A stretch of DNA of 64,000 nucleotides from Candidatus Oxydemutatoraceae bacterium (GCA_965218975.1 OZ244717.1:338347-402346), one strand, 5' to 3'; positions 1,044 through 30,455 are shown, counted from the stretch's first letter. The notes: generated from the sequence alone by a model not told the origin. Numbers and translations: made by a program.

Positions 1044-1086
1044 ACAGCAGCGTTGAATAGCATTTGACGTATATACTTATCGGAAT

Positions 1087-3839: not shown

Positions 3840-3840
<1 letters not shown>
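1087..3840 (+). CDS. cas3: Cas3 helicase-nuclease of type I-G/I-U (SF2 helicase N-terminal, HD nuclease C-terminal)
   Basis: 917 aa. Helicase motifs are I 'DIPTGLGKTS', II 'VLDEAH', V 'TSAGEVGVDLD' and VI 'QRLGRVNRRG'. The C-terminal HD domain shows 'LHDKGK' and 'IATHHGY'. The HD-at-C-terminus arrangement is the subtype I-G hallmark. Confidence 0.9.
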
Positions 3841-5814
<1,974 letters not shown>

Positions 5815-5846
5815 CAAGAATCTCATTTAAGTTTCTTGAGTTAACT

Positions 5847-8036: not shown

Positions 8037-8521
8037 GCGCATAGAACTGTTGCCGAGACGAGCGTGTGAACACCTGCTATGGTGGCGCCCTAATTTGATT
8101 TTCCCTTTACAGGTTCCAAAACCCCTTTTGGCTATAATAGATACTATTATTAACGTATTAACGGCATCCTCGCGAGGACGATTATGGTCGGAGCTATCAA
8201 GCTCGGATCAGTTGGTTATGGACGCAACCAAGTAAACCGGAGTGTTTTTGTCGTTTGCCACCGAAACAGACTGATCATTGGACAACAATCGGAAAATCTG
8301 GTGAAAAAATATTGATTTACCAACAGGATATTGTGAAATATATACTAATTAGATTAGAAGAGGGGAATTTCGGCAATTCTTATCTAGTATCGGCTCGGGC
8401 GAAAATGATTCAGAGCGATGTCTTTTACGGAGTAATGAAAAGCCTTGCGAGAAAGAAAAAAGGTTGCCGGTCACGCTATCGTGATTGGTCGAAATAAAAC
8501 CCGTCGATTGCGCTTAGCGCA

Positions 8522-15981: not shown

Positions 15982-16010
15982 GCGATTAAATGTTTTTCGT
16001 AAATTTATGC

Positions 16011-16901
16011 TCAACGTTCACCACTGAATAAAGCCTCTTGAATGTCGCCTTGAATACAATTCTTCACGCCATTCGCATTTCTTTGTTTTGTATTTTTAAC
16101 AGGTTTCCTAAGTGGTTGCCCATTATGTTCAAGATACCCAAGAACTCTCCGCAAGCCAATTTCAACATGCTTTTGTGATCTTTCAATACCGATGCTTTTT
16201 CTACCTAATGTTCGTGCAACTGCATTAGTAGTAAATGCTCCTGCAAACGGGTCAAGAATTATATCTTCTTTATTTGAACTTGCTTGAACAATTCTTTGAA
16301 GAAGCGTTTCAGGTTTTTGGGATGGATGATCTTCATATTCATCCATCTTGTAACGTACTCGAGGAAAATACCAAACATTTCCTGGAACTTTTTTCGTATT
16401 ATAAATCGTTGGAATCTTTTTTCTGTAGTCAATAAGTTTACGTTTAGCCCCCGTTTTAGCTTCTATAGCAATTGTGTCAGCGTTAAAAGTGTAATTATCA
16501 AGATCTTTCACACAGAAAAGAATCGGTTCATACATGGAACCATAATATTTTTTCGCTTGCACCCCCGAACTATCATATGACCAAATAATTCTGCTAAGTA
16601 TGTTTATTCTCTTTCTCAATATAATATCTATGTAGGGCATAGCTTGGGTGCTTGTCATCACATACATAGAGCCTTGAGATGAAAGTTTATCAATACAAAG
16701 AGTTAACCATTTCTCACACCATTCAGCATACGCTTCATCAGAAGGCCATTTGTCATCAAATCCATCAAAGCGTTTCCCAATGTTGTAAGGGGGATCAGCA
16801 AATATCAAATCAATTGAATTATTAGCAATTTTATCGCGTAATACTTCTATTGCATCGCCTTGGTAAATGGCATGATTTTTTATTTCGTATTTTTTAATCA
16901 T
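16011..16901 (-). CDS. DNA methyltransferase, beta-class (motif IV 'DPPYNIG' precedes motif I 'LDPFAGAFTT'); N6-adenine or N4-cytosine
   Basis: 296 aa with both catalytic and AdoMet-binding motifs. The start codon is 4 nt downstream of the IS1595 transposase stop. Confidence 0.85.
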   Translation of the reverse strand: MIKKYEIKNHAIYQGDAIEVLRDKIANNSIDLIFADPPYNIGKRFDGFDDKWPSDEAYAEWCEKWLTLCIDKLSSQGSMYVMTSTQAMPYIDIILRKRINILSRIIWSYDSSGVQAKKYYGSMYEPILFCVKDLDNYTFNADTIAIEAKTGAKRKLIDYRKKIPTIYNTKKVPGNVWYFPRVRYKMDEYEDHPSQKPETLLQRIVQASSNKEDIILDPFAGAFTTNAVARTLGRKSIGIERSQKHVEIGLRRVLGYLEHNGQPLRKPVKNTKQRNANGVKNCIQGDIQEALFSGER

Positions 16902-16905
16902 TAAA

Positions 16906-17826
16906 TCAAGCTACCAATTGTTCATAAGTAATCGTCTTCCCAACCATGGCCTTAAAGAGATCATCAAGTCTGTCCTGTGTATCACGTTTCACATTGCCTT
17001 CATTAAGTCTGAATGTAAACTCATTTACATATTGTTGACAATGCTTCTTGCTCCAATTGTGGTAAACACCATTGAAGCCACGTTTAATCACTGACCATAC
17101 AGATTCAACTCCATTAGTATGCGCCATCCCGTTAACATATTCTCTTGCTGAATGTTTTACGCTTTCATGCTGATAATAGTCGCCTCCAATATCTTTATAA
17201 CCCTTGTGGTCATCCGTATAAATGGTGGTACCCACTTCAATGTTAGCAAGAACAGCACTATGAATAGTAGCCTTGTCTTCACCTTCAACTGGCATAGCTT
17301 TTACACGGCCTTCCCGTTCTCTCATACCCAGCACAGCCTGCTTTCCCACAGTACCGCGTCCGGCCTTGAGTTTCTTATGAGAGTGTTTATTCTTTTCAGC
17401 CCTACCAATATAGGTGGCGTCCATTTCCACTTCACCACTCAAGGCTTCAAGATTGTTGCCGCAAGCTAAACGTAGCCTATGCAGCATGTACCAGGCTGTC
17501 GGATAGCTAACGTCCAGTTCCTTGCTTAATTGCATGGCGGAAATACCTTTACGGGCGGTCATAAGCAGATACGCTGCAAATAGCCACATACGGGCATCAC
17601 GCACCCTGTTATGTTCAAGTGGGGTTTCTGTGAAAGCATTGAAATATCCGCGACAATCGCCGCACCAATAACCTTTCTTGTAGTTCTTTTGCTTGGTGAT
17701 TCTGCCGGTACAGCCGCATTTGACACATACAGGCTTAGTTCCCCATCTAAGCTGCTCAAGCTTCGGCAAAAATGTTTTCAAGGGCAATTTCATAATTGGA
17801 CTCTTTTGGCGATAGACCCCGTTCAA
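16906..17826 (-). CDS. IS1595-family (ISXO2-like) DDE transposase
   Basis: N-terminal zinc ribbon 'CVKCGCTGRITKQ...CGDCRGYF', a 'TAWYMLHRLR' helix and a DDE core 'IYTDDHKGY...HTNGVESVWSVIKRGFNGVYHNWS' are present. The start may be the second Met (17793). Confidence 0.8.
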   Translation of the reverse strand: MNGVYRQKSPIMKLPLKTFLPKLEQLRWGTKPVCVKCGCTGRITKQKNYKKGYWCGDCRGYFNAFTETPLEHNRVRDARMWLFAAYLLMTARKGISAMQLSKELDVSYPTAWYMLHRLRLACGNNLEALSGEVEMDATYIGRAEKNKHSHKKLKAGRGTVGKQAVLGMREREGRVKAMPVEGEDKATIHSAVLANIEVGTTIYTDDHKGYKDIGGDYYQHESVKHSAREYVNGMAHTNGVESVWSVIKRGFNGVYHNWSKKHCQQYVNEFTFRLNEGNVKRDTQDRLDDLFKAMVGKTITYEQLVA

Positions 17827-18193
17827 TTGATTTATTGCGGGTCACGCCCCGTGCCTTTAGGCAGGCAACTTTTAGGAGCCACTCATCAACATCCGGAATC
17901 CATTGTTCCTTTGTATCCGAAGGCAGCAGAAAAAGTCTTTGCTTCCCACCTTCGAGAAAGGGACTTTGTAAATTGTCACGTATATTTTTTAAAAGTATAT
18001 CGCTTGCTACAGAATCATCATAAATTTTATGGCACCAATTCCAAATCGGACCAAGTTTATCGGCCTTATCAACCACTTCCCCTGTTTCATCAAGGAGGAT
18101 ACTAACAGGAATTAGCTTCTTGTCGAACGCCTTCTTAGGATCAACAAGAGATTTACCGATTTTGGAATTTCGGTAACGTAATTCTTCCTTCAT
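17756..18193 (-). CDS. Hypothetical protein (145 aa), last gene of the GHKL/desulfurase operon
   Basis: Co-directional ORF after the 300-aa gene. No recognisable motif. Confidence 0.4.
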   Translation of the reverse strand: MKEELRYRNSKIGKSLVDPKKAFDKKLIPVSILLDETGEVVDKADKLGPIWNWCHKIYDDSVASDILLKNIRDNLQSPFLEGGKQRLFLLPSDTKEQWIPDVDEWLLKVACLKARGVTRNKSIERGLSPKESNYEIALENIFAEA

Positions 18194-18298
18194 CTACCAA
18201 TTTAATCCAATCATGAATTGAGCGTTCTTTATAGATTGTTTCCATAGTCTGTTGTCCTCCTTATCGGAAATACAACCTCTGCATCGACAATTGCAGCT

Positions 18299-19201
18299 TC
18301 AATTCTTTCCATCTTCAGCGGCTTTGACTGCATCAACAACGTCATCAGCAAGTCGACGAAGTTCAACATATTCAAGCACTGCTAGTTCTCGAGAACCGCC
18401 GATAAAGCAAATCTCCCGGCATACATCTAGCACTTTGCCGGCAGGCGGCAGTTTGCCGCTACTTTCATTGTCGTCGGGAAGAAATCTTGTGAGACTCGCC
18501 GCCACGGCTTCTTGGACCGAAGCTATTCCAAAAACGGGATTCCTGGATACCATTGCAGATACAAACCATTCCCAGTGGGCTTTTGTTTGCCGAAGTATTT
18601 TTCCTATCCGGTCTTTCGCTATCCCGGATTGTATCTCGGCTCGCCGAACTAGCCGCTCCCGCCACCAAGCTCTCGCAAACGGACAATCAACAAGAACACT
18701 TTTGTTCCCCCGAACATGAGGCAATCCACCCAGTTGGCGTAGAACCGAACGCACGCAGTTGTCCGTTTGCTCTTTTCTTTTAGGGTTCTCGTTGGCCATT
18801 ATCCTGTCAATACGCTCTGCGCCTGTTTGTGATGCGATCCCATTACTTGCGAGGAAACTCGGTTCGATTCGACCTTCCCGAACGTGGCACATAGTGACAT
18901 GAGTCCAAAATAATGTGCTTGAGGCAATCGACAAAGAAAGGTTATTCCAGAGATCGTACATCTTGGATTCAGTGCTAGCTGGGGGATCCTTGAATTGCGC
19001 CTCGCTCATCTTGACCTGATACAGATCGGGATCAATCAAACCAGAAACCGGAATCTGCTCCATAGTTTTGATGAATGCTTCCCCGTCTCTGATCTCTTGA
19101 AGAAATGCCTCTTGTTTTTCGCTACCTTTCTCGCTAAGCAAATTCGCCCGGAATTTGGCCCACTCTTTGTCGTCAAGACATTTCCAATCAAGTTCACTCA
19201 T
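18299..19201 (-). CDS. Hypothetical protein (300 aa) in the GHKL/desulfurase operon
   Basis: Its start overlaps the upstream stop (ATGA at 19198-19201). No family recognised. Confidence 0.55.
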   Translation of the reverse strand: MSELDWKCLDDKEWAKFRANLLSEKGSEKQEAFLQEIRDGEAFIKTMEQIPVSGLIDPDLYQVKMSEAQFKDPPASTESKMYDLWNNLSLSIASSTLFWTHVTMCHVREGRIEPSFLASNGIASQTGAERIDRIMANENPKRKEQTDNCVRSVLRQLGGLPHVRGNKSVLVDCPFARAWWRERLVRRAEIQSGIAKDRIGKILRQTKAHWEWFVSAMVSRNPVFGIASVQEAVAASLTRFLPDDNESSGKLPPAGKVLDVCREICFIGGSRELAVLEYVELRRLADDVVDAVKAAEDGKN

Positions 19202-20087
19202 CTTCGTGCCTCAATGGTGGGGGTACATCATGCGGATAAAGCAGCGTTGCAGCCTCCTCAGGTCTGAAATCCGGATCTTCCCAATTACAATTAGTGCAGC
19301 CTTTCGTTTCCAGATCATTGGCAAGCGATTCTAGAGCTTTGTAACTGCACCATCCTTCTTCACTATCTCCGTCGGAATCCTTGTATTTCCGTTGCAGTGC
19401 AGAAAAGCACGAAGTCACGACATGAGTCATAATGTCCTTGCGTTTATCCGAATAGTGCCCTTTGTCTTGAAGAAAAGTATAAAGAGCTGGACCACAATGT
19501 ACTACGAAGCGGAACGTGTCTCCATCAACAGCCTCTGTATAAAATTGGCCTTGCTTTAAGCTTTCGTCCGACCAAATAGAAATGAGTCCTTGAAGACCTG
19601 ATGCCCCAAGATTAAATACCGGCCCCTGCGCAAGCCAAGCACCCTTCGGAAATATTACTTCCAAACCATTCCAGTCGGGATGTACATCATCCTTTTCAGA
19701 ATCCAGAGTACAGAATATTTCCCGGATGCATACAATTACTGGAGTGAAGTACGGAGGCTCACCAAAGTTTGTGTTATTCCAAGCAATTTCCTGGGTCGGA
19801 TCTTGAGAACACTGAAGTTCCCGATACGCCGAGCGAGGCGCGGCCAAAGAACAAGCATACCGGGCATGTTTTTGCGCAATCAGTCGCTCGACCAGACGGG
19901 CACCCGTCACCGAATGCGTTAGCAAGAAGCGGCTTTTGTCGGAACTAAACCTATGTTGAACCTGACTATGTTGAACCTGATAATTGCCATTCGGGAAGGC
20001 ATCATTGCCTTCCTCAATTGCCGGATAATTACGCGCCAGAATCGCGTTCGCCCCGGGGGCGCTCTTGGCGTTGATGTCGGTATTCAT
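19194..20087 (-). CDS. Hypothetical Cys-rich protein (297 aa) in the GHKL/desulfurase operon
   Basis: A 4-bp overlap with the upstream GHKL gene. The C-terminal 'GWCSYK...KGCTNCNWEDPD' may be a zinc-binding cluster. Confidence 0.55.
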   Translation of the reverse strand: MNTDINAKSAPGANAILARNYPAIEEGNDAFPNGNYQVQHSQVQHRFSSDKSRFLLTHSVTGARLVERLIAQKHARYACSLAAPRSAYRELQCSQDPTQEIAWNNTNFGEPPYFTPVIVCIREIFCTLDSEKDDVHPDWNGLEVIFPKGAWLAQGPVFNLGASGLQGLISIWSDESLKQGQFYTEAVDGDTFRFVVHCGPALYTFLQDKGHYSDKRKDIMTHVVTSCFSALQRKYKDSDGDSEEGWCSYKALESLANDLETKGCTNCNWEDPDFRPEEAATLLYPHDVPPPLRHEDE

Positions 20088-22051
20088 TCTGAAGTGCTTA
20101 TGGTGGGCTTAGTATCATCGGAGGGTCTCTTGCCAATCTCCACTCGGAGACTTGCTCCGGATTGGATAGGGACACCATCGGCTGCCAGTTTATATTCGGC
20201 CTCTACTTCGGTCGTAGTATTCTTTCCAAGATTGCCCAGCAAAATAGCAGGATAGGGTTTGGTAATTATTCTATCCGGCTGAATCGTTTTTCCATTGACC
20301 TTCGCCGCGGTGATTGCGGCAACACGATCAGTCCATATACGCTCAGTCGTTACATCCGAATGATCATCAACAACGAGACGGAGTTCCAGATCTTCACAAG
20401 GCTCAATGCAATGGATCCGGATTTTCCGGCGATTTGAAGCCGATGGAGTAACAACGATCTTAAAATATTGCGGCAAGGTCGGCCTTTCCCGAGAGCCGCT
20501 CCGGCTACTTTGCCGTCTTTTCCCGGTATTCTTGCTTCGGCCCTTGTTCCTGCCACCTGTCGTTCCCCCGGGCCCTGTTTCATGTGGTCGCCGTGAGGAT
20601 ATCCGTCTCTTAATCAGCGCGATTGTGCCCTGATATTCCCGACCGGCTTTTTTTCCTTGTCGGCTTCCGGCGGTGCTATCAGGGAAGACCAAGAAGTCGT
20701 CAGGGCTATACTCGTCAGAAGTAAGTTTTGGTATTACCTCTTCGATTTTCTTTTTAATCACATTAAATGCCTGACGTAGCTGCTTCCAGTCCTCGTTGCT
20801 GATAGCCTTCTTATCAAGCCGATTGTGTAGAGGCCCCTCAGCTTTTCCAATAAGATCGTGGAACCGGCGGGGCGCGCTCTTTGCGGAAACCAGAACCAAA
20901 CCTTCAAAGGCCTCATAGTCTGCAAAGTTAAAACCGGGAATGTTGCCGGTAATCCACATACCGTTCCTGCAAAGATTTACTCGCGTTCGCCCTGAAGGCG
21001 CCGGATGCTGAACGAAAAGTCTTACCGAGCCATCCAGGACCTCAACTTCATGGCGATAACCTCCTCGGTAGGCTTGATAGGCAAAAAATGCCTGTTCGCC
21101 CGGGAGATAGTCCTTTTTCCGTTTTTGTTCCCGATATTTCTCCAGAACAGTCTGCAACTGCTCACTCGTAAGTTCCCGCTGGGGCTTATTGCCCTCGCCT
21201 TCAATAACCACCTCGAGCTGCCCATCAGCTATTGCGACAAAAAAACTACAGGCAATAGCCTCCGGTACGGTATCAGATAGAAAATCCTTATCCTTACTAC
21301 GAAAACGGTTGAATGCAGGAACGATAACGGCAGTCCCATGTCCGGAATCCTTCTCAATATCCGCCAAAGCGTTTTTAATCAATATCGGAAGGTCATTTCC
21401 CCACGGGTATATGTATTCTCTTTTTTTGCGATCAACCAAGTAATAACCGTTAGCGCTCCGCCCTGTGTCGTCGCTCTGGTTAGCATAATGGGATGCGAGA
21501 ATTGCGTGGCCGCTTGCAATCCGTTTCCCGTTGCAAATACCACCGTAGAGTACATACCTGAGATCTGAGGCGGGAAATAACGAAAAATGCCCAACGCCGA
21601 AGGTACCGGACGCTCCACTTTCCTTGCGACTTCTGCCGTCCGACAATAATGCCGTCATTCTGTCTTTGTCGAGGCCAATACCATTGTCCGAAACAATAAG
21701 TGCCTGCTGCCAATCTTGTGATAGCGCTTCAGAGATTCTGTCAGCCACAATTTGCTCCTGATCATTGAGCGAACCGTTGTTTTCCTCCTCACGCCTTTTC
21801 ACTGCTTTCTTAAAAGCGGATTTATAACTCTCAATTCCAGGTATATCTTCGGTTTTTACCTCCGTAGTAGAAAAACGTACTATAGCCCTAGCCTCACGAA
21901 CCCCAGTGTAATGGAGGGCGGCGGCGGCATCCAGAGAATTTTGGATCAGCTCGCGCACAATTGCGAACGAACTCATCTCTCGGAAGCTGCTAATGCTAGC
22001 AGCCGTAAATCCGTAAGAGTCACTCGATTTGAAAAAATAAAGATCTGTCAT
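20084..22051 (-). CDS. GHKL-superfamily (MORC/MutL/Hsp90-like) ATPase, 655 aa
   Basis: Bergerat-fold motifs are 'VRELIQNSLDA' (N box), 'VSDNGIGLDKD' (G1) and 'GTFGVGHFSLF' (G2). There is a basic low-complexity linker and a C-terminal domain. The ORF overlaps the desulfurase stop by 4 bp. Confidence 0.8.
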   Translation of the reverse strand: MTDLYFFKSSDSYGFTAASISSFREMSSFAIVRELIQNSLDAAAALHYTGVREARAIVRFSTTEVKTEDIPGIESYKSAFKKAVKRREEENNGSLNDQEQIVADRISEALSQDWQQALIVSDNGIGLDKDRMTALLSDGRSRKESGASGTFGVGHFSLFPASDLRYVLYGGICNGKRIASGHAILASHYANQSDDTGRSANGYYLVDRKKREYIYPWGNDLPILIKNALADIEKDSGHGTAVIVPAFNRFRSKDKDFLSDTVPEAIACSFFVAIADGQLEVVIEGEGNKPQRELTSEQLQTVLEKYREQKRKKDYLPGEQAFFAYQAYRGGYRHEVEVLDGSVRLFVQHPAPSGRTRVNLCRNGMWITGNIPGFNFADYEAFEGLVLVSAKSAPRRFHDLIGKAEGPLHNRLDKKAISNEDWKQLRQAFNVIKKKIEEVIPKLTSDEYSPDDFLVFPDSTAGSRQGKKAGREYQGTIALIKRRISSRRPHETGPGGTTGGRNKGRSKNTGKRRQSSRSGSRERPTLPQYFKIVVTPSASNRRKIRIHCIEPCEDLELRLVVDDHSDVTTERIWTDRVAAITAAKVNGKTIQPDRIITKPYPAILLGNLGKNTTTEVEAEYKLAADGVPIQSGASLRVEIGKRPSDDTKPTISTSE

Positions 22052-23202
22052 GCTACTGCTACTCCTTCACCAAACTGCCGTTCAAACGCAAGAGCGGCAA
22101 GCATAATATCCTCCTCTGTGGTAAACCGGCCTAGGCTAATACGGACCGCCTGAAGCGCCGACAAAGGCGGTTGTCCGAGGGCCGTTAAAACATGAGACGG
22201 TTCAACCCCTCGTGACGAACAGGCAGAACCCGTTGAAATCGCCACGCTCCCTTCAAGCCCGGCAATTACTTCATCTCCGGATATCCCCGGAAACGACACA
22301 TTTAAACTTCCCGGTACACGTTGATATTTGTGCCCGTTCAGTTGAAGCCCTGGCGCGCTTTTCTGCAGTAACTGCCATAGCCGGGAAGTCAGTTTCCTGA
22401 TACGTAACGAATCCTTTTCTGTCTCATTCAACGCAATTTCACATGCCGCACCAAAGCCAACAACGAGATGTACGGGCAAGGTGCCGGGACGTAAGCCGCG
22501 CTCCTGACCACCTCCTGTAGCAACCGGCCCGATGCGATCAAAAGTATCGTTGTGGACATAGAGGACCCCAATCCCCATCGGGCCATATACTTTGTGCGAG
22601 GATAACGACAACAGGTCGATTCCAAGCGAATCGACATCAATTCCTATTTTTCCGGCGGCTTGGGTTGCATCCGTATGCATTAACGCACCATGCTCATGGG
22701 CAATCGACGCAATCTCGGCAACCGGATGAACAACTCCAATTTCGTTATTAACCAGCATAGCGGATACTATCGCAGTCTTATCGCTGATCGCATCTTGCAT
22801 TTCGTCCATATCCATAATGCCGTCCGGATTCACCCCGATCTTGCGGATAGGAACTCCATCCAAACCCAATGCTCGAACTGTTTCCAAAACTGCCGGGTGC
22901 TCGGTAGCTACAGTAATAATCTCGTTACGGCCAGTGCTTCTCTTGATCGTGCCTCGAAGCGCAATGTTGCAGGATTCCGTTGCGCCGGAAGCAAAAATAA
23001 TTTCTTGGTCGTCTGCGCCTAACAGGGCAGCTACCTGAGCACGACCTTCAGCTACGGCCCGCGCCGCATTCCATCCATAGGCATGATGGATTGCATGGGG
23101 ATTCCCAAAACGCTCTTGCAGAAAAGGCTGCATGGCATCTCGAACCCGGGGGTCAAGCGGAGTGGTGGCCTGGTAGTCCAGATACACCGGTGCAGAAGCC
23201 AT
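22048..23202 (-). CDS. Cysteine desulfurase (class V PLP aminotransferase; IscS/NifS/DndA/SspA-like)
   Basis: PLP-lysine motif 'SSHKVYGPMGIGVLYV' and active-site Cys loop 'STGSACSS'. The likely start is 'MASAPVYLDYQATTPLD' at 23202. The longer listed ORF to 23274 overlaps the upstream gene. Confidence 0.85.
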   Translation of the reverse strand: MASAPVYLDYQATTPLDPRVRDAMQPFLQERFGNPHAIHHAYGWNAARAVAEGRAQVAALLGADDQEIIFASGATESCNIALRGTIKRSTGRNEIITVATEHPAVLETVRALGLDGVPIRKIGVNPDGIMDMDEMQDAISDKTAIVSAMLVNNEIGVVHPVAEIASIAHEHGALMHTDATQAAGKIGIDVDSLGIDLLSLSSHKVYGPMGIGVLYVHNDTFDRIGPVATGGGQERGLRPGTLPVHLVVGFGAACEIALNETEKDSLRIRKLTSRLWQLLQKSAPGLQLNGHKYQRVPGSLNVSFPGISGDEVIAGLEGSVAISTGSACSSRGVEPSHVLTALGQPPLSALQAVRISLGRFTTEEDIMLAALAFERQFGEGVAVA

Positions 23203-23206
23203 ATGT

Positions 23207-24568
23207 TTAGTCAGTGCAATCACATGGCAACATGGCCTTGGTTTCAGTGAGCGCTTGGACTCCGCGGTCCGCAATGTTTCGGTAAGTCATCTTGCTGTTC
23301 GTTCCAAAGAAACCGACTGTACCGTCAATGCCTCGTTGTTCTGCTGTCAAATCCCGAGTGTAGGTATCCTCTATACGAGCCCACCAAGCGACATCCATCG
23401 GTGTGTTCTGCTGACTGTTAGGTAAATCTGCCTCGCATTCCGAATGAATACTCTCATAAACCTTAGTCAGGTTTGATGTTCCCTTGAGAAAACAGTAAAC
23501 ACAATTGGACAGATGCCCGGTCGCGGGGAGTTTCAATTCAAAATCCTTGTTTTTCCGCCAGAATGCCTTAACGTCTTCTTTTTTTACACACATGTCTGAA
23601 AGCGGCATATAGACATGTTCTCCTTCATACTCCCGAACCTCAGAACTGCCCGAGATTCTCGCTTCGACACGTTGCACACGTGCCTCTTCATCTCCCCTCA
23701 ACCCGATAAAAGCGACATATTGCACTCCACCCTCGCCAAATACAGCATTCCCCCCATACGCTTTCCCATCCAAGAGCTTACTGTCCATGGCGTCTGATGC
23801 TGTCGAAAAATCCTTATAACGTTGCTCCGGACGACATACCGGCTGTGACATCACAAATTTCTTCTTGGCCAGAAAAATATCTCTTGGGACCCCGCCATTA
23901 TTGCGACGGTGGCGTTGATAAAGCGTTTCCTCATCAACCTGGGGCTTATTCTCCCAATGGCCAAGACGAGGAATGATTTTTTTGCAGGCCAGCCAGTCGC
24001 GCAGAAACATTCGTGTTGTCTCAAGTTTCAGAGTTGCTGTGCAGGTCCGGCGGAACTGGTTGGGAACATACCCTGACCACGACAACATCTCCTCAAAGAC
24101 CTCGCCCCTCCAGCAGTAACCATCCGGGTTATTTTCCGAACGAGGCTTGGCATTCACTAGCCGATAGGAAGGCAAACGAGTCCAGTCGCCGTTGCGCACA
24201 TCTTCATAGGTTTGATACTCGATCAGAAAAAATGGAATTCCGTAGCAAGATTCTGCTCGTTTCTTGCATTGGGCTACAAAGTCATAGGTGGCCGGATGTT
24301 CGGCAGCAGTATTGTTAAAGAGTATGACATCACCGCGCTCGGCCTTTAGTACACGGTTTTCCAGCAGAGTAAACAAAAGCATTCCGCTGGATCGACCGCC
24401 GGAGAATTTGACAACGTGAGGAAAATTCTCGTGCCTTTTAGACCGATATCGAAACTGATACTCGAACTCCGGATCGTATTTTTTTGGTTTGCGAAGGCGT
24501 TTCGAAACTACTAGCTTGGGAATTCCTTTTACAGAATGTTTAACAAGATTTTCTACAACGGTCTGCAT
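23207..24568 (-). CDS. PAPS-reductase-family PP-loop ATP pyrophosphatase (DndC/SspD-like), 453 aa
   Basis: PP-loop 'VVKFSGGRSSGMLLF', 'FNNTAAEHPATYDF', and a C-terminal Cys cluster 'MLPCDCTD'. Confidence 0.7.
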   Translation of the reverse strand: MQTVVENLVKHSVKGIPKLVVSKRLRKPKKYDPEFEYQFRYRSKRHENFPHVVKFSGGRSSGMLLFTLLENRVLKAERGDVILFNNTAAEHPATYDFVAQCKKRAESCYGIPFFLIEYQTYEDVRNGDWTRLPSYRLVNAKPRSENNPDGYCWRGEVFEEMLSWSGYVPNQFRRTCTATLKLETTRMFLRDWLACKKIIPRLGHWENKPQVDEETLYQRHRRNNGGVPRDIFLAKKKFVMSQPVCRPEQRYKDFSTASDAMDSKLLDGKAYGGNAVFGEGGVQYVAFIGLRGDEEARVQRVEARISGSSEVREYEGEHVYMPLSDMCVKKEDVKAFWRKNKDFELKLPATGHLSNCVYCFLKGTSNLTKVYESIHSECEADLPNSQQNTPMDVAWWARIEDTYTRDLTAEQRGIDGTVGFFGTNSKMTYRNIADRGVQALTETKAMLPCDCTD

Positions 24569-24623
24569 TACGGCCTGCCTCCAAAAATCCGGGAATTATT
24601 AAGATTCGTTGACAAGGACTGAC

Positions 24624-24968
24624 TTATTCAACCTCTTCCATGATTGGTTTTCCCTTGCGACCTACCCGCATTCTAAACTTTCTTTGCAAGTCTTTCTTGA
24701 AAACATAGGTTCGATTAAGAGGGTAAAACTCGTTCATCATCGAAAGTTTAGACATGACAAAAGAGTCTTTATCGTAATTTTCATCAAAATCGCAACCCCA
24801 TCCAAAGCAAACAAACGGCGTCAGAGCCTCATGGTTCATCGCTGCCCTGATGCCTATCAGATTCTTGCCAAGTCGTTCTATAGCGTTTCCTTGTGCCTGT
24901 TTTTTCTTTCCTTCCTGTTCACGTTCCCTATTCGTTCCCTGTTTCTTTATTTCTGAAACAACAATCAA
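24624..24968 (-). CDS. Possible small protein (114 aa) at the head of the sulfur-modification-like operon
   Basis: Co-directional ORF 55 bp upstream of the PP-loop gene. Lys/Glu-rich N-terminus, no motif. It may be non-coding. Confidence 0.25.
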   Translation of the reverse strand: MIVVSEIKKQGTNREREQEGKKKQAQGNAIERLGKNLIGIRAAMNHEALTPFVCFGWGCDFDENYDKDSFVMSKLSMMNEFYPLNRTYVFKKDLQRKFRMRVGRKGKPIMEEVE

Positions 24969-25031
24969 TTTGCGGTAGTTGGCATCATTTTCCTTTCTCA
25001 GCCAGATTACCCCGCCATCGGGTATTATTGT

Positions 25032-25781
25032 TCAATCAGTAAACACCAAATCAAACTCATGTCTCTGGCCGGCCCCTTTGATTATAGATGGCTTTGTCGC
25101 TCCGTTTGGAGTCTTTATTCTTGACCTTGTGTTGCGCCGTGTTTTGGCGCAGATCCTCTGCTCTAGCCACTGTAGAAATAATGCCCCTTTTAGCCCATGA
25201 ATATTGAAAATCAAAACTTCACTATGGAATAGAACATCGTTGTATATGTCTTTCGGCAAGGCCACTATAGACGTGATTTCAGGGTAGGTTCCATCTACAA
25301 AACGCATCCAACGCTTGCTATTCAGAGTCTGGTTAAGACGTAACCCATAAGGCGCAAACAAAACAATCGGGATGTTTTTACCAAATAACTCTATCGTTTT
25401 ACGCAACCAGACTTCAAGTAAAAGCGGACGTCTGCCGAATGTTTCCGATACCAACTGTTTTGTTTTTTCTTCAATATTAAAAGGCGGGTTCGCAATGACA
25501 AGTGCGGGTTTTTCCACTTCACCTCTTGAAAGGGAAATAAAATCCCTGACAATCGTGTCGGGAAATCCTTGATCCTCTATGTCAACCCCTTTTGTTTTGA
25601 ACCCCGCTTGCTTAAAAGGGATAAGAAGCGAACCCTTACCTACACACGGGTCAAATACGATTCTGTCGGATTTGATTTTCTTATGAACAATACTAAACAG
25701 GAATTGGCTTAATTCCGGCGGGGTGTAGACTGTGGAGTTCTTTTGCTCCTTGTAAAAGTCGTTGCGGTCAACGCGATACAT
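25032..25781 (-). CDS. N6-adenine DNA methyltransferase, gamma-class (motif I 'FDPCVGKGSL' then motif IV 'NPPF')
   Basis: 249 aa. The ATG immediately abuts the TGA of the upstream IS1595 transposase remnant (tgaATG). Confidence 0.8.
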   Translation of the reverse strand: MYRVDRNDFYKEQKNSTVYTPPELSQFLFSIVHKKIKSDRIVFDPCVGKGSLLIPFKQAGFKTKGVDIEDQGFPDTIVRDFISLSRGEVEKPALVIANPPFNIEEKTKQLVSETFGRRPLLLEVWLRKTIELFGKNIPIVLFAPYGLRLNQTLNSKRWMRFVDGTYPEITSIVALPKDIYNDVLFHSEVLIFNIHGLKGALFLQWLEQRICAKTRRNTRSRIKTPNGATKPSIIKGAGQRHEFDLVFTD

Positions 25782-26130
25782 TCATGCTACCAGTTTCTCA
25801 AACGTTACGGTCTTCCCAACCATGGCCTTAAACAGGTCATCCGGTTTGTCTTGTGTATCACGAGCAACATTGTCTTCATTCAGGCGAAAGGTGAACTCGT
25901 TGACGTACTGCCGGCAATGCTTCTTGCTCCAATTGTGGTAAACACCATTGAAGCTGCGTTTGATGAGCAACCATACAGACTCGACCCCGTTTGGTATGAG
26001 CCGTCCCGTTCACATACTCTCTGGCCGAATGGTTGACCTTTGCCTTTATACCCCCTGTAATCATCGGTGTAAGGAGTAGAGCCAAGCTCAATGTGCTCGC
26101 GGAATGGCATTGCTGGTCGTTTCATGGTCC
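25782..26130 (-). pseudogene. 5'-truncated, frameshifted remnant of an IS1595-family transposase
   Basis: The 62-aa ORF 'FNGVYHNWSKKHCRQYVNEFTFRLNEDNVARDTQDKPDDLFKAMVGKTVTFEKLVA' is ~85% identical to the C-terminus of the 16906-17826 transposase. An upstream 81-aa ORF in another frame matches the 'IYTDDHKGYK' region. Confidence 0.75.
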
Positions 26131-26544
26131 TCGGCCCGTATCGGCATGGCCTTTATATGGCCGCCACGCTCCTGCATCCCCAGCACGGCCCGTTCGTCTA
26201 CCGATCCTCGTCCAGCTTTCAGCTTCTTGTCCATGTGCTTGTTCTTTCATTTACGGGCATCCATGAGCTTGTTGTGCTCAAAAAGACTTAGCGTTTTAGC
26301 GTGTTTTCTAGACATCTTTCTTGTTCCTACAGAATATGAATTAATGCCTTTGAAGCCCCGCAACTTTGAAGAATATGGGCTAGTGATTATACACGCTTCG
26401 CTTCTGCTCTCCCGCTTCTCTCCTTACCTTTCTGCACAGGAGGCATGTCAACAGATGAGCCAACGACATGCCCTTCAAACTACCTCAATCGGTCGCAAGG
26501 CAGTGCCTTATTGGTCGTTCCCCCGTTCGCGGGTGCATAAGCTC

Positions 26545-27060
26545 AGAAACATTTGAAACCGTTTTGTGTTTGGTGGCAGATTGTCGGCGGATTGTGCCGG
26601 ATTATTGGTGGATTGTTGGTAGGTTGTGCCGGATTATTAGCAAAGTGCATGTCGTCCATGACGCGACTGGGTTCTGTCAACAAGCCCCAGCCCCGACATC
26701 CTTGTCGGGTCGTTCGCCGCTGAAAACCGTTCGGTTTTCCGGGCGCGGCTTACCCATGACGCGACTGGGTTCTGTCAACAAGCCCCAGCCCCGACATCCT
26801 TGTCGGGTCGTTCGCCGCTGAAAACCGATCGGTTTTCCGGGCGCGGCTTACCCATGACGAGACTGGGTTCTGTCAACAAGCCCCAGCCCCGACATCCCTG
26901 TCGGGTCGTTCGCCGCTGAAAACCGTTCGGTTTTCCGGGCGCGTCTCACCCGACAACGGACAGAAAGCACCGATCCGAATGTTGCTGCCGAATGCTTCCC
27001 CGGAAGCCCTTCAAGAATCCCATTTAGGGTGGCATCGTACATTCTTGACAAGCCCGCCGC
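26545..27060. repeat. Composite intergenic repeat locus R1: GGATTGTCGG-type short repeats, 3 tandem ~98-bp two-hairpin units, and a conserved ~110-bp tail
   Basis: The unit 'ATGACGCGACTGGGTTCTGTCAACAAGCCCCAGCCCCGACATCCTTGTCGGGTCGTTCGCCGCTGAAAACCGTTCGGTTTTCCGGGCGCGGCTTACCC' recurs three times. It carries hairpins CCGACA-tcct-TGTCGG and GAAAACC-gttc-GGTTTTC. Confidence 0.9.
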
Positions 27061-27487: not shown

Positions 27488-27852
27488 TCGTTCGCCGCTG
27501 AAAACCGTTCGGTTTTCCGGGCGCGGCTCACCTGTTTTGTGTTTGGTGGTAGATTGTCGGCGGATTGTGCCGGGTTGTTGGTGGATTGTTGGTAGGTTGT
27601 GCCGGATTATTAGCAAAGTGCATGTCGTCCATGACGAGACTTCGTGCTGTTAATGAACCCCAGCCCCGACATCCTTGTCGGGTCGTTCGCCGCCCGCTAA
27701 AAAAGGTGGCACCGTTCGGTTTTCCGGGGCGCGGCTCACCCATGACGAGACTTGGTTCTGTCAATGAGCCCCAGCCCCGACATCCCTGTCGGGTCGTTCG
27801 CCGCTGAAAACCCCGCTGAAAACCGTTCAGTTTTCCGGGCGCAGCTCACCCT
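27488..27852. repeat. Composite repeat locus R2 (same family; head plus ~2.5 units)
   Basis: Same head ('gattgtcggcggattgtgccgggttgttggtggattgttgg...caaagtgcatgtcgtccatgacg') and same hairpin units as R1. Confidence 0.9.
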
Positions 27853-27909: not shown

Positions 27910-29661
27910 ATGCGAGCCGAAATCGGACAGCGCCGGCAACCGATATATCCTCGCATCCCGGTAACATTGCCTGCGCGGACCGCGCAGCTCATTGGGTTAC
28001 AATACCCCGTAGCTAAAAATAAAAAAGGTCTGACTGACAACTACATGTTTTACCTAGATACGACAACGCCTTTATTTCAAGACAAAGAGAATCAAGACCT
28101 GATTACCATATATCAGGCGAGTGTTTGGATATCAAAGCACCTAAACAAAGAAGTAACCTCCTCCAATATCTCGTATCTAATCCAATACGGAAGGATTGCC
28201 AAATATTCGGAGAACGGGACAACCGCGGTCAGTAAAAACGAGCTGGTCAATTACTATAAAGGCTTTCTTCAGGACCGGGAAAGTGTTTGGAAGAATAAGC
28301 TCGGGGACGACCTAAACTGGAATCTTTCATTCGACTTCCTCAGAGAGAAAGACACAACGAAGCATGTGCATCGATTTCATCCCTACAAGGGGAAGTTTAT
28401 CCCTCAATTAGTTGAGTATTTCTTGGATGGCCACACGGATGAGTTTAAAAAAGAGGCCTTTTTCCAAACCGGGGATATTGTTTTAGACCCGTTCTGCGGC
28501 AGCGGAACAACGCTGGTGCAAGCAAACGAACTCGGAATGCACGCCGTCGGCGTTGACATTTCAGCTTTCAATACTTTGATTGCCAACGTAAAAATAGCGA
28601 AGTATGACCTCAACGAGCTGCGCAACGAACTGAGATGCATAGGCCTTTTACTTCGGCGGAAAACATACGATTCTCCGAATATTGAGTTTGAAAGAGAATT
28701 GTCGGAAGCGTTAAACGTCTTTAATAAAAACAACTTTCCGACACCGGATTTCAAAAGAAAGCTTCGGGTAAAGGAAATAGATGAAAAAACTTATGCCTGC
28801 GAAAAAGAGAAGGAATTTATGCCTGCTTATGACAAATTGGTTAAGAGGCATCGTATTCAAATTAAGCAGACTAAAACCGGCCGTTTTACGGACAAGTGGT
28901 TTTTGAGGCCCGTAAAGGATGAGATAGAGTTGTTGCTCAAACAAATCAGGGAAGTCAAGAATGAGCGCATCAGAAAAATCTTGGAAATCGTTTTAAGCAG
29001 AACCGTTCGGTCGTGCCGAGCTACGACCCATGCCGACCTGGCCACCTTGAAAGAGCCCGTAACAAAACCGTATTACTGCAAAAAACACGGCAAGATTTGC
29101 AAGCCCTTGTTTTCTGTCCGGTCGTGGTGGAAGAGATACGGTGAGGACACTTTAATCAGGATTCAGGCATTTAATACTCTGCGCACTGAAACCAAACAAA
29201 TCTGCCTGCAGGGAGATTCGAGAACAATAAACTTGATTGATCGCCTGCCGGGGAAAGAGAAGCGCCTTGCGGGACTTATAAAAAGCAAAGGAATAAACGG
29301 CATATTTACCAGTCCTCCTTATGTCGGACTGATTGACTACCACGAACAGCACGCCTACGCATACGACCTATTTGGCTACAAAAGAAACGACCGGCTTGAA
29401 ATAGGCCCCCTGTCCGAAGGGCAAGGCGCTATAGCAAGACAAACTTACTCGGAGTCAATTGCCGAAGTGCTACGAAATTGCAGAAAATACCTTGCGAAGG
29501 ACTTTAATGTTTTTCTTGTCGCGAATGATAAATACAACTTGTATCCATCAATCGCCAAACTTGCCGATATGCGCATAGCGAATACGTATAAGCGACCGGT
29601 TCTTAACCGAACGGAAAGGGATAAAGGGGCTTATTCGGAGATGATATTTCACTTGAAATAA
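27910..29661 (+). CDS. DNA methyltransferase (motif I 'DPFCGSGTT', motif IV 'SPPYVGLIDY'; SPPY suggests N4-cytosine or N6-adenine), 583 aa
   Basis: Both MTase motifs are present. The true start may be internal (e.g. Met at ~28045). Confidence 0.75.
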   Translation: MRAEIGQRRQPIYPRIPVTLPARTAQLIGLQYPVAKNKKGLTDNYMFYLDTTTPLFQDKENQDLITIYQASVWISKHLNKEVTSSNISYLIQYGRIAKYSENGTTAVSKNELVNYYKGFLQDRESVWKNKLGDDLNWNLSFDFLREKDTTKHVHRFHPYKGKFIPQLVEYFLDGHTDEFKKEAFFQTGDIVLDPFCGSGTTLVQANELGMHAVGVDISAFNTLIANVKIAKYDLNELRNELRCIGLLLRRKTYDSPNIEFERELSEALNVFNKNNFPTPDFKRKLRVKEIDEKTYACEKEKEFMPAYDKLVKRHRIQIKQTKTGRFTDKWFLRPVKDEIELLLKQIREVKNERIRKILEIVLSRTVRSCRATTHADLATLKEPVTKPYYCKKHGKICKPLFSVRSWWKRYGEDTLIRIQAFNTLRTETKQICLQGDSRTINLIDRLPGKEKRLAGLIKSKGINGIFTSPPYVGLIDYHEQHAYAYDLFGYKRNDRLEIGPLSEGQGAIARQTYSESIAEVLRNCRKYLAKDFNVFLVANDKYNLYPSIAKLADMRIANTYKRPVLNRTERDKGAYSEMIFHLK

Positions 29662-29669
29662 AAAACAGA

Positions 29670-30455
29670 ATGGCACTTGATGAACGACAAATAACAGGAA
29701 TCGGGGGCACTATAAGGGAAAGCCTAAGGAATAAGCTCAGCAATTATAAACCCGAGACAAACCACATGCCCTTTCACTACAGATTGATCGGTAAAGACAG
29801 AATGGCGTTGTTTTCTTTTATTCACTCTCTGAATACAACCTTCGGAACTTCTATCTTTGAACCTGCGGCAGAAGCTTTGGCGAAACCGAACTTCCGGTCC
29901 GTAAACAAACAATACGAAGTCGGCAATAAAATCAGCAAACGGTCCCAGTCCGAAATTCAGAGCATTATCAATGATCTTACAACCGGAAAAGACCCGGATA
30001 AAAAAGCAGAGAGCGAAAGAATAAGAAAAGTATGTAACAGCGGCAGTATGGAAGAACTACAAACTGTAAAAGTAGATTTATACGCTCAAAGTTTTGACGG
30101 AGTAGTCCATTTGTTCAACCTGAAACCCGCCAAACCGAACATTAGCGACTTCAAAGACTTTAAAAGAACCCTGTTAGAGTGGACTGCAATTTTTCTGGCC
30201 AACAATCCACAAGCAAGAGTAAATTCATATATTGCCATCCCCTACAATCCTTATGAACCGAAACCTTACGAGAGATGGACCTTAAAAGGAATGCTAGACT
30301 TGGAAAATGAACTGAAGGTTGCGGAAGAGTTCTGGGATTTTTTAGGCAGCGAAGGCACTTACGAGGACTTGCTCGGATGCTTTGAAAAAGTGGGAGTCGG
30401 AATGAAGGAAGAGATAAGCGATTATTTCCAGAGATTTAATCAGGTTTTAATATGA
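29670..30455 (+). CDS. Putative type II restriction endonuclease partner (261 aa) of the upstream MTase
   Basis: It starts 8 nt after the MTase stop, has no homolog family I can name, and the size is typical of type II REases. This is a context-only inference. Confidence 0.35.
   Translation: MALDERQITGIGGTIRESLRNKLSNYKPETNHMPFHYRLIGKDRMALFSFIHSLNTTFGTSIFEPAAEALAKPNFRSVNKQYEVGNKISKRSQSEIQSIINDLTTGKDPDKKAESERIRKVCNSGSMEELQTVKVDLYAQSFDGVVHLFNLKPAKPNISDFKDFKRTLLEWTAIFLANNPQARVNSYIAIPYNPYEPKPYERWTLKGMLDLENELKVAEEFWDFLGSEGTYEDLLGCFEKVGVGMKEEISDYFQRFNQVLI

What the first reader, a model, noticed from the sequence alone, without database searches (positions are those of the whole stretch)
25032..26130. 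Second, non-homologous MTase abutting an IS1595 transposase remnant with identical stop-start geometry
A gamma-class N6A MTase (NPPF) starts immediately after the TGA of a 5'-truncated IS1595 transposase fragment (tgaATG). Only the last ~120 codons of that fragment survive. They are ~85% identical to the intact copy at 16906-17826. The same tight tnpA-MTase junction with an unrelated MTase argues for a modular 'transposase + exchangeable MTase' unit rather than chance adjacency.
Basis: seen in the sequence. Interest (0 to 1): 0.6.

Follow-up and report, generated by a model that had tools for sequence, protein, structure and literature searches.

The report
Decayed restriction-modification-carrying IS1595 transposons
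The two transposase–methyltransferase pairs are worn-out copies of a known kind of jumping gene (an IS1595-family "transporter" insertion sequence) that carries a restriction-modification system directly behind its transposase; only the methyltransferases have stayed readable.

Summary
The adjacency is real and is not chance. MTase2 (25781-25032, minus strand) starts right after the TGA of an IS1595 transposase remnant. A terminal inverted repeat of the relatives' type (GGGAATTAT…GTTGACA, 24591-24614) lies beyond the MTase, so the MTase sits inside the element.

Relatives elsewhere are intact, multi-copy units of 2.6-3.2 kb with 8-bp target duplications. Their layout is IRL, tnpA, cargo, small ORF, IRR. 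The cargo starts within a few bases of the tnpA stop and is usually a DNA MTase of one of at least six Pfam families. It often comes with a restriction enzyme (EcoRI, BglII or SacI family) or is fused to HNH or GIY-YIG nuclease domains.

Close homologues of MTase2 sit in tnpA–MTase–EcoRI-like REase–small ORF units. The MTase1 junction recurs in two other metagenome contigs.

- The remnant is internally deleted, not 5'-truncated.
- The "intact" copy lacks its first ~27 codons and both ends.
- The spacers differ (0 versus 4 nt).
- Both restriction genes are dead.

The modular-unit interpretation holds. Passenger-carrying IS1595 elements are already described, so this is a new member of a known kind.

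The parts
26446..26461 (-). IRL-like inner repeat of element 2 (GGCTCATCTGTTGACA), containing a -35-like TTGACA. The outer terminus and target duplication are not identifiable.
   Evidence: Read. It resembles GGAACATTAGTTGACA at the left ends of L001, L003, L004 and L017. No 8-bp duplicate of the IRR flank was found.
25782..26315 (-). tnpA2: an IS1595-family transposase pseudogene. The start and 13 N-terminal codons are kept, the Zn-ribbon and HTH regions are internally deleted, the catalytic region is frameshifted, and the last 62-69 codons are in frame.
   Evidence: tblastn against tnpA1; sequence; PF12762 hit on the last 62 aa; 79% nucleotide identity to 16906-17165.
25032..25781 (-). MTase2: a compact gamma-type N6-adenine MTase (motifs X, I and NPPF). 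Residues 1-198 are collinear with 205-aa homologues. A frameshift near 25185 gives a 51-aa foreign tail.
   Evidence: 297 homologues, typically 205 aa; 68% identity to the L032 MTase, with KGHYFYSG found in another frame.
24690..25170 (-). EcoRI-family restriction endonuclease pseudogene. Codons 1-30 are in one frame, about 31-65 are deleted, 66-197 are in another frame with an internal stop, and the 3' end is deleted.
   Evidence: tblastn with the L032 and L037 REases (74% and 65% identity); weak PF02963 hit; intact homologue versus EcoRI structures E=4e-7.
24624..24698 (-). C-terminal half of the conserved backbone small ORF (KKDLQRKFRMRVGRKGKPIMEEVE*), fused by a deletion to REase codon 197.
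   Evidence: tblastn with the small ORFs of L004, L005 and L007; sequence.
24591..24614 (+). IRR of element 2 (GGGAATTATTAAGATTCGTTGACA). This is the right terminus, lying beyond the MTase and REase cargo.
   Evidence: Only match in the window, with 0 mismatches, to the IRR pattern built from relatives. The pattern alone is not significant: 57 of 100 shuffles of the window gave at least one match within 3 mismatches. What supports it is the exact match, its position just beyond the cargo and its correct orientation. Compare the IRRs of L001, L005 and L006.
16906..17826 (-). tnpA1: an open reading frame of 295-306 codons with the DDE domain and Zn ribbon. It is 5'-truncated relative to relatives (no IRL, no promoter, first ~27 codons replaced).
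   Evidence: PF12762 at 3e-43. In the alignment with L001-L004 and L017, homology starts only at about the '…LEQLRWG' codons. No IR was found.
16011..16901 (-). MTase1: a beta-class N6/N4 MTase (DPPY, PF01555), full length (296 aa), GC 0.36 against 0.44 for tnpA1. Its ATG lies 4 nt (TTTA) after the tnpA1 TGA.
   Evidence: The same junction, TGATTTA…ATGATTAAAAA, occurs in L039 and L041.
15989..16024 (-). First 12 codons of the cognate REase of MTase1 (VVNVEHKFTKNI). It overlaps the MTase1 3' end by 14 nt, as in L040 and L041. It is cut off 7 nt before the last CRISPR repeat.
   Evidence: Compared with the L041 REase N-terminus VANVKHEFTKDI. The last CRISPR repeat is at 15946-15981.

Best explanation
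Both tnpA-MTase pairs are decayed copies of transporter insertion sequences of the IS1595 family. Their ends (GGGAATTAT…), 8-bp target duplications and DDE(x6)K motif are ISNwi1-like.

The intact form is IRL (with promoter), tnpA, cargo, a ~55-aa conserved ORF, then IRR. All genes are packed as one operon. The first cargo gene starts at or within a few bases of the tnpA stop.

The cargo is a DNA-modification module. Usually it is a type II R-M system with the MTase first and the REase overlapping its end, or an MTase fused to an HNH or GIY-YIG nuclease. Different cargos occur behind closely related transposases, and the same cargo occurs behind distant ones.

In this window:
- Element 2 (about 26461-24591) keeps its right end and part of its left end, but tnpA and the EcoRI-like REase are pseudogenes.
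- Element 1 (about 17790-15989) has lost both ends, the tnpA 5' end and all but 12 codons of its REase. The break abuts the CRISPR array.
- Each MTase reading frame survives. They are now orphan MTases.

Inferred, not shown:
- The tight junction gives co-transcription and translational coupling of the MTase to tnpA, so methylation is established on arrival before restriction.
- The R-M cargo acts as a defence and addiction module that favours retention of the IS.
- REase and tnpA decay afterwards.
For: **The cargo is inside a transposable unit.**
- The IRR at 24591-24614 lies beyond MTase2 and the REase remnant.
- L012-L015 are four copies of a 2664-bp unit in one genome. L007/L008 is a 3182-bp unit with 36-40-bp IRs and the duplication CTCGTTTT. 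L037/L038 is a 2590-bp unit with the duplications CTGATTAT and AAACGGAT.

**Cargo identity.**
- MTase2 homologues lie in tnpA(316-321 aa)-MTase(205)-EcoRI-family REase(239)-small ORF units.
- The window holds the matching REase pseudogene and a small-ORF remnant.

**The MTase1 junction recurs.**
- It recurs in L039 and L041, both with decayed tnpA.
- L041 has an overlapping 370-aa downstream ORF. The first 12 codons of that ORF survive at 16024-15989.

**Backbone.**
- The conserved small ORF occurs in 11 relatives. In L003 it overlaps the tnpA stop directly (ATGA), and in L009 it starts about 30 nt after the stop.

**Discordance.**

**Literature.**
- Transporter IS were defined from the IS1595 family (Siguier 2009, as cited in PMC3129680).
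- RM and solitary M genes associated with IS are cited to the same paper in PMC2853133.
- tISCpe8 and MTnSag1 have 25-bp IRs and 8-bp DRs (PMC5704250).
Against: - No target-site duplication and no outer IRL terminus can be shown for either window copy.
- Copy 1 has no recognisable end at all, so its membership rests on the tnpA, the conserved junction and the REase stub.
- No expression, methylation or transposition data exist.
- Translational coupling and the addiction/defence role are inferred from geometry and from general knowledge of R-M systems.
- Part of the wider clade carries non-MTase cargo (KilA-N, Bro-N, PIN, DUF2513, unknown), so MTase cargo is frequent but not obligatory.
- The ISNwi1-subgroup criteria are recalled from ISfinder, not checked against it.
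Confidence: 0.85

Rival explanations
1. Chance adjacency: two IS1595 copies happened to insert just upstream of two resident, unrelated MTase genes.
For: Homology between the two copies ends at the stop codon, and the sequences after it share nothing. The region is a defence island where both IS and MTases are common.
Against: The IRR of element 2 lies downstream of the MTase and REase. The same tnpA-MTase1 junction occurs in L039 and L041, and the MTase2 cargo follows tnpA in L032-L034, L037 and L038. In relatives, 17 of 24 have a coupled downstream ORF.
Confidence: 0.03
2. There is no dedicated cargo slot. Each cargo was picked up independently by one-ended or read-through transposition, with the IS using a surrogate right end beyond an adjacent R-M system (ISEcp1-like capture). 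The tight junction would then be only what remains after selection for compactness.
For: Junctions differ between backbones carrying the same cargo: TGA|ATG in the window, TAATG in L032, TAG+10 nt in L037. No conserved recombination site flanks the cargo. L040 has an MTase1-type M-R pair with no tnpA homology detected in the locus.
Against: A surrogate-end capture should leave the original IRR and the small ORF between tnpA and the cargo. Instead the small ORF and IRR are found downstream of the cargo in 9 relatives and in the window. Only L009 shows cargo after the small ORF.
Confidence: 0.15
3. The IS-encoded MTase chiefly regulates transposition by methylating the element's own ends or promoter, as host Dam does for IS10 and IS50. 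It would not be acting as R-M or defence cargo.
For: The MTase is the gene coupled to tnpA. MTases without a recognisable nuclease partner exist (L018; L029 is uncertain).
Against: Many different MTase families with different specificities sit behind near-identical IR types. Most cargos include a REase or nuclease domain. No shared candidate methylation site co-varying with cargo was seen in the IRs (inspection only).
Confidence: 0.07
4. The two directly oriented IS copies form a composite transposon that moved the intervening 6.8-kb SspA/DndA-like operon.
For: Both copies are on the minus strand and bracket 17.8-24.6 kb. The operon starts 23 nt from IRR2.
Against: Copy 1 has no ends and a truncated tnpA. 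Copy 2 has a dead tnpA. The outer ends needed (IRL2 and IRR1) are degenerate or absent, and there is no flanking duplication.
Confidence: 0.04

Closest known systems
Transporter insertion sequences (tIS) of the IS1595 family (Siguier, Gagnevin & Chandler 2009; examples tISCpe8 and MTnSag1)
   Same: Both have a DDE_Tnp_IS1595 transposase with an N-terminal Zn ribbon, terminal IRs of about 25-40 bp, 8-bp target duplications, and passenger genes downstream of tnpA inside the IRs (PMC3129680, PMC5704250).
   Different: The cargo here is R-M systems, MTases or MTase-nuclease fusions rather than lincosamide resistance. The first cargo gene abuts or overlaps the tnpA stop. A conserved ~55-aa ORF sits before the IRR. 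The two window copies are immobile remnants.
ISNwi1 subgroup of IS1595, including the passenger-carrying 'ISNwi1+' forms (ISfinder classification, recalled from memory)
   Same: Ends are GGGAATTAT (subgroup consensus ggnnatTAT), the DR is 8 bp, the catalytic motif is D, D, E(x6)K (…HTNGVESVWSVIKR…), and unit sizes are 1.6-4.4 kb.
   Different: Not compared with ISfinder entries, and no named IS was matched. tnpA identity to annotated plasmid copies is at most 43%.
Transposon-like mobile forms of R-M systems (Furuta, Abe & Kobayashi 2010, PMC2853133)
   Same: R-M genes are flanked by imperfect IRs and 8-bp duplications. Their Neisseria unit contains a COG3677 transposase-like gene. That paper cites IS1595 work for IS-associated RM and solitary M genes.
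   Different: Here an intact cognate transposase, multiple identical copies and a repeated architecture across many cargos show autonomous transposition. That paper could not say which enzyme moved its units.
EcoRI-family type II R-M systems
   Same: The cargo REase of the MTase2-type elements matches PF02963 and EcoRI structures. L031 carries a bona fide EcoRI_methylase plus an EcoRI REase.
   Different: The partner MTase of element 2 is a 205-aa PF02384-like protein, not PF13651. It has no match in the PDB by sequence. In the window the REase is a pseudogene.

Membership tests
IS1595 family insertion sequence | Transposase with a DDE_Tnp_IS1595 catalytic domain and an N-terminal Zn ribbon | tested here: met
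   tnpA1: PF12762 at 3.3e-43 and PF12760 at 2e-4 (21.6 bits, below Pfam's curated cut-off of 25.4). Last 62 aa of tnpA2: PF12762 at 1.8e-7. tnpA2 lacks the Zn ribbon through deletion.
IS1595 family insertion sequence | Terminal inverted repeats bounding the element | tested here: inconclusive
   Element 2: the IRR is an exact match to the relatives' pattern, though that pattern is not significant on its own (57 of 100 shuffles gave a match within 3 mismatches). The IRL is present only as an inner part. Element 1: no IR found. Relatives: clear IRs of 19-40 bp.
IS1595 family insertion sequence | 8-bp target-site duplication | tested here: not met
   Not detectable for either window copy. It is met in the relatives L013 (TAAACAAG), L007 (CTCGTTTT), L037 (CTGATTAT) and L038 (AAACGGAT).
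ISNwi1 subgroup (criteria recalled from ISfinder) | Ends ggnnatTAT and a DDEK catalytic signature | tested here: met
   GGGAATTAT at 24591-24599 and at the ends of relatives. E(x6)K in …GVESVWSVIKR… of tnpA1. The criteria themselves were not verified against ISfinder.
Transporter IS (tIS) | Passenger genes unrelated to transposition located between the IRs and moving with the IS | tested here: met
   Identical units that include cargo occur at different sites: L012-15, L007/8, L037/38, L032/33. In the window, the IRR lies beyond MTase2 and the REase remnant.
Type II restriction-modification system | Adjacent MTase and functional cognate REase | tested here: not met
   In the window both REases are destroyed: an EcoRI-like pseudogene at 25170-24690 and a 12-codon stub at 16024-15989. 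Intact M+R pairs exist in the relatives L005, L006, L007, L032 and L037, and probably L041.
Gamma-class N6-adenine DNA MTase | Motif order X - I (FxGxG-like) - IV (NPPF/Y), then the target-recognition domain; N6-adenine methylation activity | tested here: inconclusive
   The motif order can be read in the sequence (TVYTPP, FDPCVGKGS, NPPF). PF02384 covers only residues 14-58. The family is only about 205 aa, so its target-recognition domain is unclear. Activity and target base are not testable here.
Composite transposon | Two IS copies with usable outer ends and at least one working transposase bracketing cargo | tested here: not met
   Outer ends are absent or degenerate. tnpA2 is dead and tnpA1 is truncated.

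The most novel reading that the evidence does not exclude
This clade of IS1595 elements may have a dedicated, translationally coupled cargo position between tnpA and a conserved small accessory ORF. That position would shuffle complete type II R-M systems and single-chain MTase-HNH or MTase-GIY-YIG enzymes between backbones. If so, these IS would be a major vehicle for R-M mobility in sponge-symbiont and marine genomes. Their decay (REase and tnpA lost, MTase kept) would be a recurrent source of orphan MTases. As far as I could find, this has not been described as a system. Siguier 2009 could not be read.
Probability: 0.4. Interest if true: 0.55.

Novelty: new member of a known kind. Interest (0 to 1): 0.4.

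Why it matters
How R-M systems move between genomes is only partly understood. Here an autonomous IS family carries them as built-in cargo, with the MTase coupled to the transposase. This gives a simple route for their spread. Decay of the nuclease and transposase also gives a route by which orphan MTases arise inside defence islands.

For this window the practical points are annotation ones. Both MTases are likely orphan relics of mobile R-M systems. The 'intact' transposase is probably immobile. The CRISPR array's distal end was truncated by the event that removed the right half of element 1.

Tried and rejected
- **Ends of element 1.** Inverted-repeat searches around element 1 gave only chance-level pairs. 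Pattern searches for the relatives' IR found nothing near 16.0 or 17.8 kb. I considered reading 15982-16010 as a degenerate IRR. I rejected this once the stretch proved to be the 5' end of the cognate REase.
- **Left end of element 2.** A target duplication for element 2 was not found, and the outer IRL end is unresolved. The L032/L033 flanks also did not give a clean 8-bp duplication.
- **Viral contigs.** No relative of tnpA1 was found.
- **PDB.** A sequence search with MTase2 gave no match.
- **Recombination sites.** Inspection of the cargo boundaries showed no conserved flanking motif.
- **Literature.** The FEMS review was not held, and Siguier 2009 is only available as a citation in other papers. 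Whether it lists MTases among passenger genes therefore rests on the citation context in PMC2853133. Searches for ISNwi1 and for IS1595 with sponge/methyltransferase terms returned nothing relevant.
- **Annotated plasmids.** Hits are labelled only 'IS1595 family transposase', with at most 43% identity. The three neighbourhoods inspected showed an AAA ATPase, a hypothetical protein with PIN, or hypotheticals, but no MTase.

Full report
**1. What is at the coordinates**

On the minus strand, a 249-aa ORF (25781-25032) begins with ATG directly after a TGA (…CTG GTA GCA TGA ATG TAT CGC…). It carries motif X (TVYTPP), motif I (FDPCVGKGS) and NPPF in gamma-class order. It has a partial PF02384 hit.

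Upstream lies an IS1595 transposase remnant. tblastn with the other copy aligns about 172 codons (26264-25785) at 55% identity, with several stops and frameshifts. Only the last 62-69 codons are in frame (84% aa identity). Nucleotide identity is 79% over 261 nt and ends exactly at the stop codon.

The remnant is not 5'-truncated. ATG at 26315 opens MSRKHAKTLSLFE, the N-terminus typical of relatives. This is followed by EHNKLMDARKW and then KNKH…, so two internal deletions removed the Zn ribbon and the HTH (compare).

The second pair is tnpA1 (17826 or 17793 to 16906) and MTase1 (16901-16011; PF01555, DPPY, 296 aa). They are separated by TGA-TTTA-ATG. The geometry is therefore tight in both pairs but not identical.

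**2. The 'intact' copy is not intact**

I aligned tnpA1 with the five closest relatives (70-79% aa identity). Homology starts only around the codons for …LEQLRWG. The relatives' IRL (…ATTAGTTGACAA), promoter and about 27 N-terminal codons (…AKTISLFELM..YPTEEDAI.YFE) are replaced by unrelated sequence, into which a 145-aa upstream ORF reads. No inverted repeat could be found for this copy.

**3. Relatives show a real transposable unit with cargo**

A scan of one genome per species returned 31 loci, mostly MAGs assigned to Gammaproteobacteria and Ca. Poriferihabitaceae, together with other phyla.

- Four copies in one Amylibacter MAG share a 2664-bp unit. Two of them (L012, L015) additionally carry a nested insertion.
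- L007 and L008 share a 3182-bp unit with 36-40-bp perfect IRs.
- Units end in GGGAATTAT… and are flanked by 8-bp duplications: TAAACAAG in L013 and CTCGTTTT in L007.
- Further IR pairs delimit units of 1.6-4.4 kb in about a dozen other loci.

In 17 of 24 distinct elements, an ORF starts within -8 to +9 nt of the tnpA stop (ATGA, GTGA, TAATG and similar).

**4. What the cargo is**

| Locus | Cargo |
|---|---|
| L001, L013, L017, L027 | PF01555 MTase fused to HNH |
| L004 | PF01555 MTase fused to T5orf172 / GIY-YIG |
| L005 | PF01555 MTase + BglII-family REase |
| L006 | D12 MTase + SacI-family REase |
| L007 | MT-A70 MTase + BglII-family REase |
| L031 | EcoRI_methylase + EcoRI REase |
| L024 | HNH protein + C5 MTase |
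| L018 | 578-aa PF01555 MTase |
| L029 | D12 MTase + overlapping 244-aa ORF |
| L009 | Remnant read as an MTase from sequence motifs only |

Thirteen of the 24 carry an MTase. Other cargos are KilA-N, Bro-N, DUF2513, PIN or unknown.

Ten more distant metagenome loci show the same tight junction in 7 of the 8 that could be scored. Two of them carry what look like MTases by sequence motifs only (a C5 type and a DPQY type); these were not scanned against Pfam.

A Roseomonas plasmid has tnpA overlapped by a hypothetical gene followed by PIN.

**5. Element 2 of the window is one of these**

A pattern built from the relatives' right ends has a single match in the window, and it is exact: GGGAATTATTAAGATTCGTTGACA at 24591-24614, oriented as an IRR and lying beyond MTase2. 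The pattern alone is not significant: 57 of 100 shuffles gave at least one match within 3 mismatches. The exactness, position and orientation of the match are what count.

MTase2 homologues (297 found, typically 205 aa) sit in units of tnpA (316-321 aa), MTase (205 aa), PF02963 REase (239 aa) and a small ORF:
- Two identical 2590-bp copies occur in one 5.8-Mb genome, with 8-bp duplications.
- One 2592-bp unit occurs in two unrelated samples.
- The REase matches EcoRI structures at E=4e-7.

The window contains the matching REase as a pseudogene:
- Codons 1-30 are in one frame.
- Codons 66-197 are in another frame, with an internal stop (74% identity).
- At FKKD the sequence switches to KKDLQRKFRMRVGRKGKPIMEEVE*.

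That last stretch is the C-terminal half of a small ORF conserved just before the IRR in L001-L007, L009 and L016-L018. A deletion therefore fused the REase to this backbone ORF.

MTase2 itself is collinear with its homologues to residue ~198, then frameshifted (KGHYFYSG sits in another frame). This explains 249 aa rather than 205 aa.

**6. Element 1 was the same kind of thing**

MTase1 belongs to a large family of ~296-aa adenine MTases.

- In L041 (82% identical) it is followed by an overlapping 370-aa ORF. It is preceded by ATGGCTAAAAAATTAAGTCTTTTTCAGTTAATG|TCTTGA|TTTG|ATGATTAAAAAG. That is a tnpA reduced to its first 11 codons plus its last codon and stop.
- In L039 (83.5% identical) a frameshifted tnpA 3' half ends in …KTITYEHKVS* TGATTTAATTTGATGATTAAAAAG.
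- The window has …TGATTTAATGATTAAAAAA.

The junction is therefore inherited, not local.

Downstream of the MTase1 stop, GTG at 16024 opens VVNVEHKFTKNI, matching the N-terminus of the L041 downstream ORF (VANVKHEFTKDI). Homology ends at about 15988, 7 nt before the last, perfect, CRISPR repeat at 15946-15981. The right half of element 1 (REase, small ORF, IRR) was removed by a deletion whose other end lies in the CRISPR array.

**7. Modularity**

Over the last 69 tnpA codons:

| Comparison | tnpA identity | MTase relationship |
|---|---|---|
| WIN1 vs WIN2 | 84% | unrelated families |
| WIN1 vs L001 | 84% | 22% over a local alignment (both PF01555; L001 is a 498-aa HNH fusion) |
| WIN2 vs L032 | 36% | 68% identical |
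| WIN2 vs L037 | 39% | 67% identical |

The same cargo joins three backbones through different junctions (TGA|ATG, TAATG, TAG+10 nt). In L003 the small ORF overlaps the tnpA stop directly (ATGA). L003 looks like the cargo-less ground state. In L009 the small ORF starts about 30 nt after the stop, and an MTase remnant follows it. I saw no conserved recombination motif at the cargo borders, so how exchange happens is unknown.

**8. Mechanism**

Shown: the architecture, mobility of the relatives' units together with their cargo, the identity of the cargo, and the decay state of the window copies.

Inferred:
- Transcription of the whole element starts from the IRL promoter. TTGACA lies within the IR and a TATAAT-like box downstream.
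- Translational coupling links the first cargo gene to tnpA.
- The MTase-first order lets methylation precede restriction.
- The R-M cargo acts as a defence and addiction module that aids retention of the IS.
- Loss of the REase and tnpA later leaves an orphan MTase.

**9. Comparison with known systems**

Passenger-carrying IS ('transporter IS') were defined on the IS1595 family (Siguier et al. 2009, cited in PMC3129680). tISCpe8 and MTnSag1 are characterised members with 25-bp IRs and 8-bp DRs (PMC5704250).

Furuta et al. [quoted passage not shown] They also describe a Neisseria unit with 26-bp IRs, an 8-bp duplication, a type IIG R-M gene and a COG3677 transposase-like gene.

The kind is therefore known. 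What may be under-described is the regular coupled cargo position, the conserved small ORF, and the breadth of R-M and MTase-nuclease cargos in this clade.

**10. Verdict**

- The finding is a new member of a known kind.
- The window copies are immobile relics within a defence island. That island also holds CRISPR-Cas, an SspA/DndA-like operon and a third R-M system.
- Interest is moderate (0.4).

Noticed in passing
window 10750-15981: CRISPR array of 73 repeats of 36 nt (72 identical, one with a single mismatch). Large ORFs at 48-10243 are presumed to be cas genes but were not checked. The distal repeat is perfect and sits 7 nt from the truncated REase stub of element 1, so the array end appears to have been cut by a deletion rather than ending in a degenerate repeat.
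   Followed up: partly
window 17756-24568 (minus strand): Six-gene operon between the two IS remnants. It has an SspA/DndA-type cysteine desulfurase (22048-23274, E 2e-140) and a 453-aa protein with weak SspD and BrxP similarity. It also has PDC-M33A and PDC-M33B candidates (20084-22051 and 19194-20087) and two ORFs with no family (300 and 145 aa). It may be a phosphorothioation-type or uncharacterised defence system.
   Followed up: partly
window 27910-30455 (plus strand): A third, apparently intact type II R-M pair: a 583-aa MTase (PADLOC MTase_II, E 3e-224) followed by a 261-aa REase_II. It is not associated with an IS1595 transposase.
   Followed up: partly
window 26561-26949 and 27488-27850: Family of ~98-nt repeats: three tandem copies at 26656-26949 (96-99% identical) and further copies about 0.6-1 kb away. 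Each contains a short palindrome (GAAAACCGTTCGGTTTTC). They lie next to the left end of element 2. Nature unknown.
   Followed up: no
L001 7362-7517; L004 7596-7754; L007 7206-7391; L017 7210-7365; window 24698-24624: Conserved ~50-60-aa ORF (…KAA.ALL.MG…PTKKDLERKFKM.VDRKGKP…EV) just inside the IRR of this IS clade. In L003 its start overlaps the tnpA stop, and in L009 it starts about 30 nt after the stop. It may be an accessory protein of the IS. It was not scanned against Pfam.
   Followed up: partly
L001 5852-7348; L013 5846-7084; L017 5849-7213; L027 5864-7300; L004 5855-7201: The cargo genes encode single polypeptides that fuse a PF01555 MTase to a C-terminal HNH domain, or in L004 to a T5orf172/GIY-YIG domain. 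They could be single-chain R-M enzymes or MTases linked to homing-type nucleases.
   Followed up: no
L012 7048-8018; L015 and L011 7103-8268: Some copies of the 2664-bp Amylibacter-type element carry nested insertions of about 970 bp or about 1165 bp in the region between the MTase-HNH gene and the IRR.
   Followed up: no
L041 about 735-810; window 26315-26247: Independent decayed elements keep the first 11-13 tnpA codons (…K.LSLF…) while losing the interior. In L041 the N-terminus is joined directly to the last codon. This is a recurrent pattern of internal tnpA deletion that leaves the cargo expressed from the IS promoter.
   Followed up: no
window 16011-16901 vs 16906-17826: MTase1 has GC 0.36, against 0.44 for the adjacent tnpA1 and 0.48 for the whole window. 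This fits a cargo of different origin from its backbone.
   Followed up: yes
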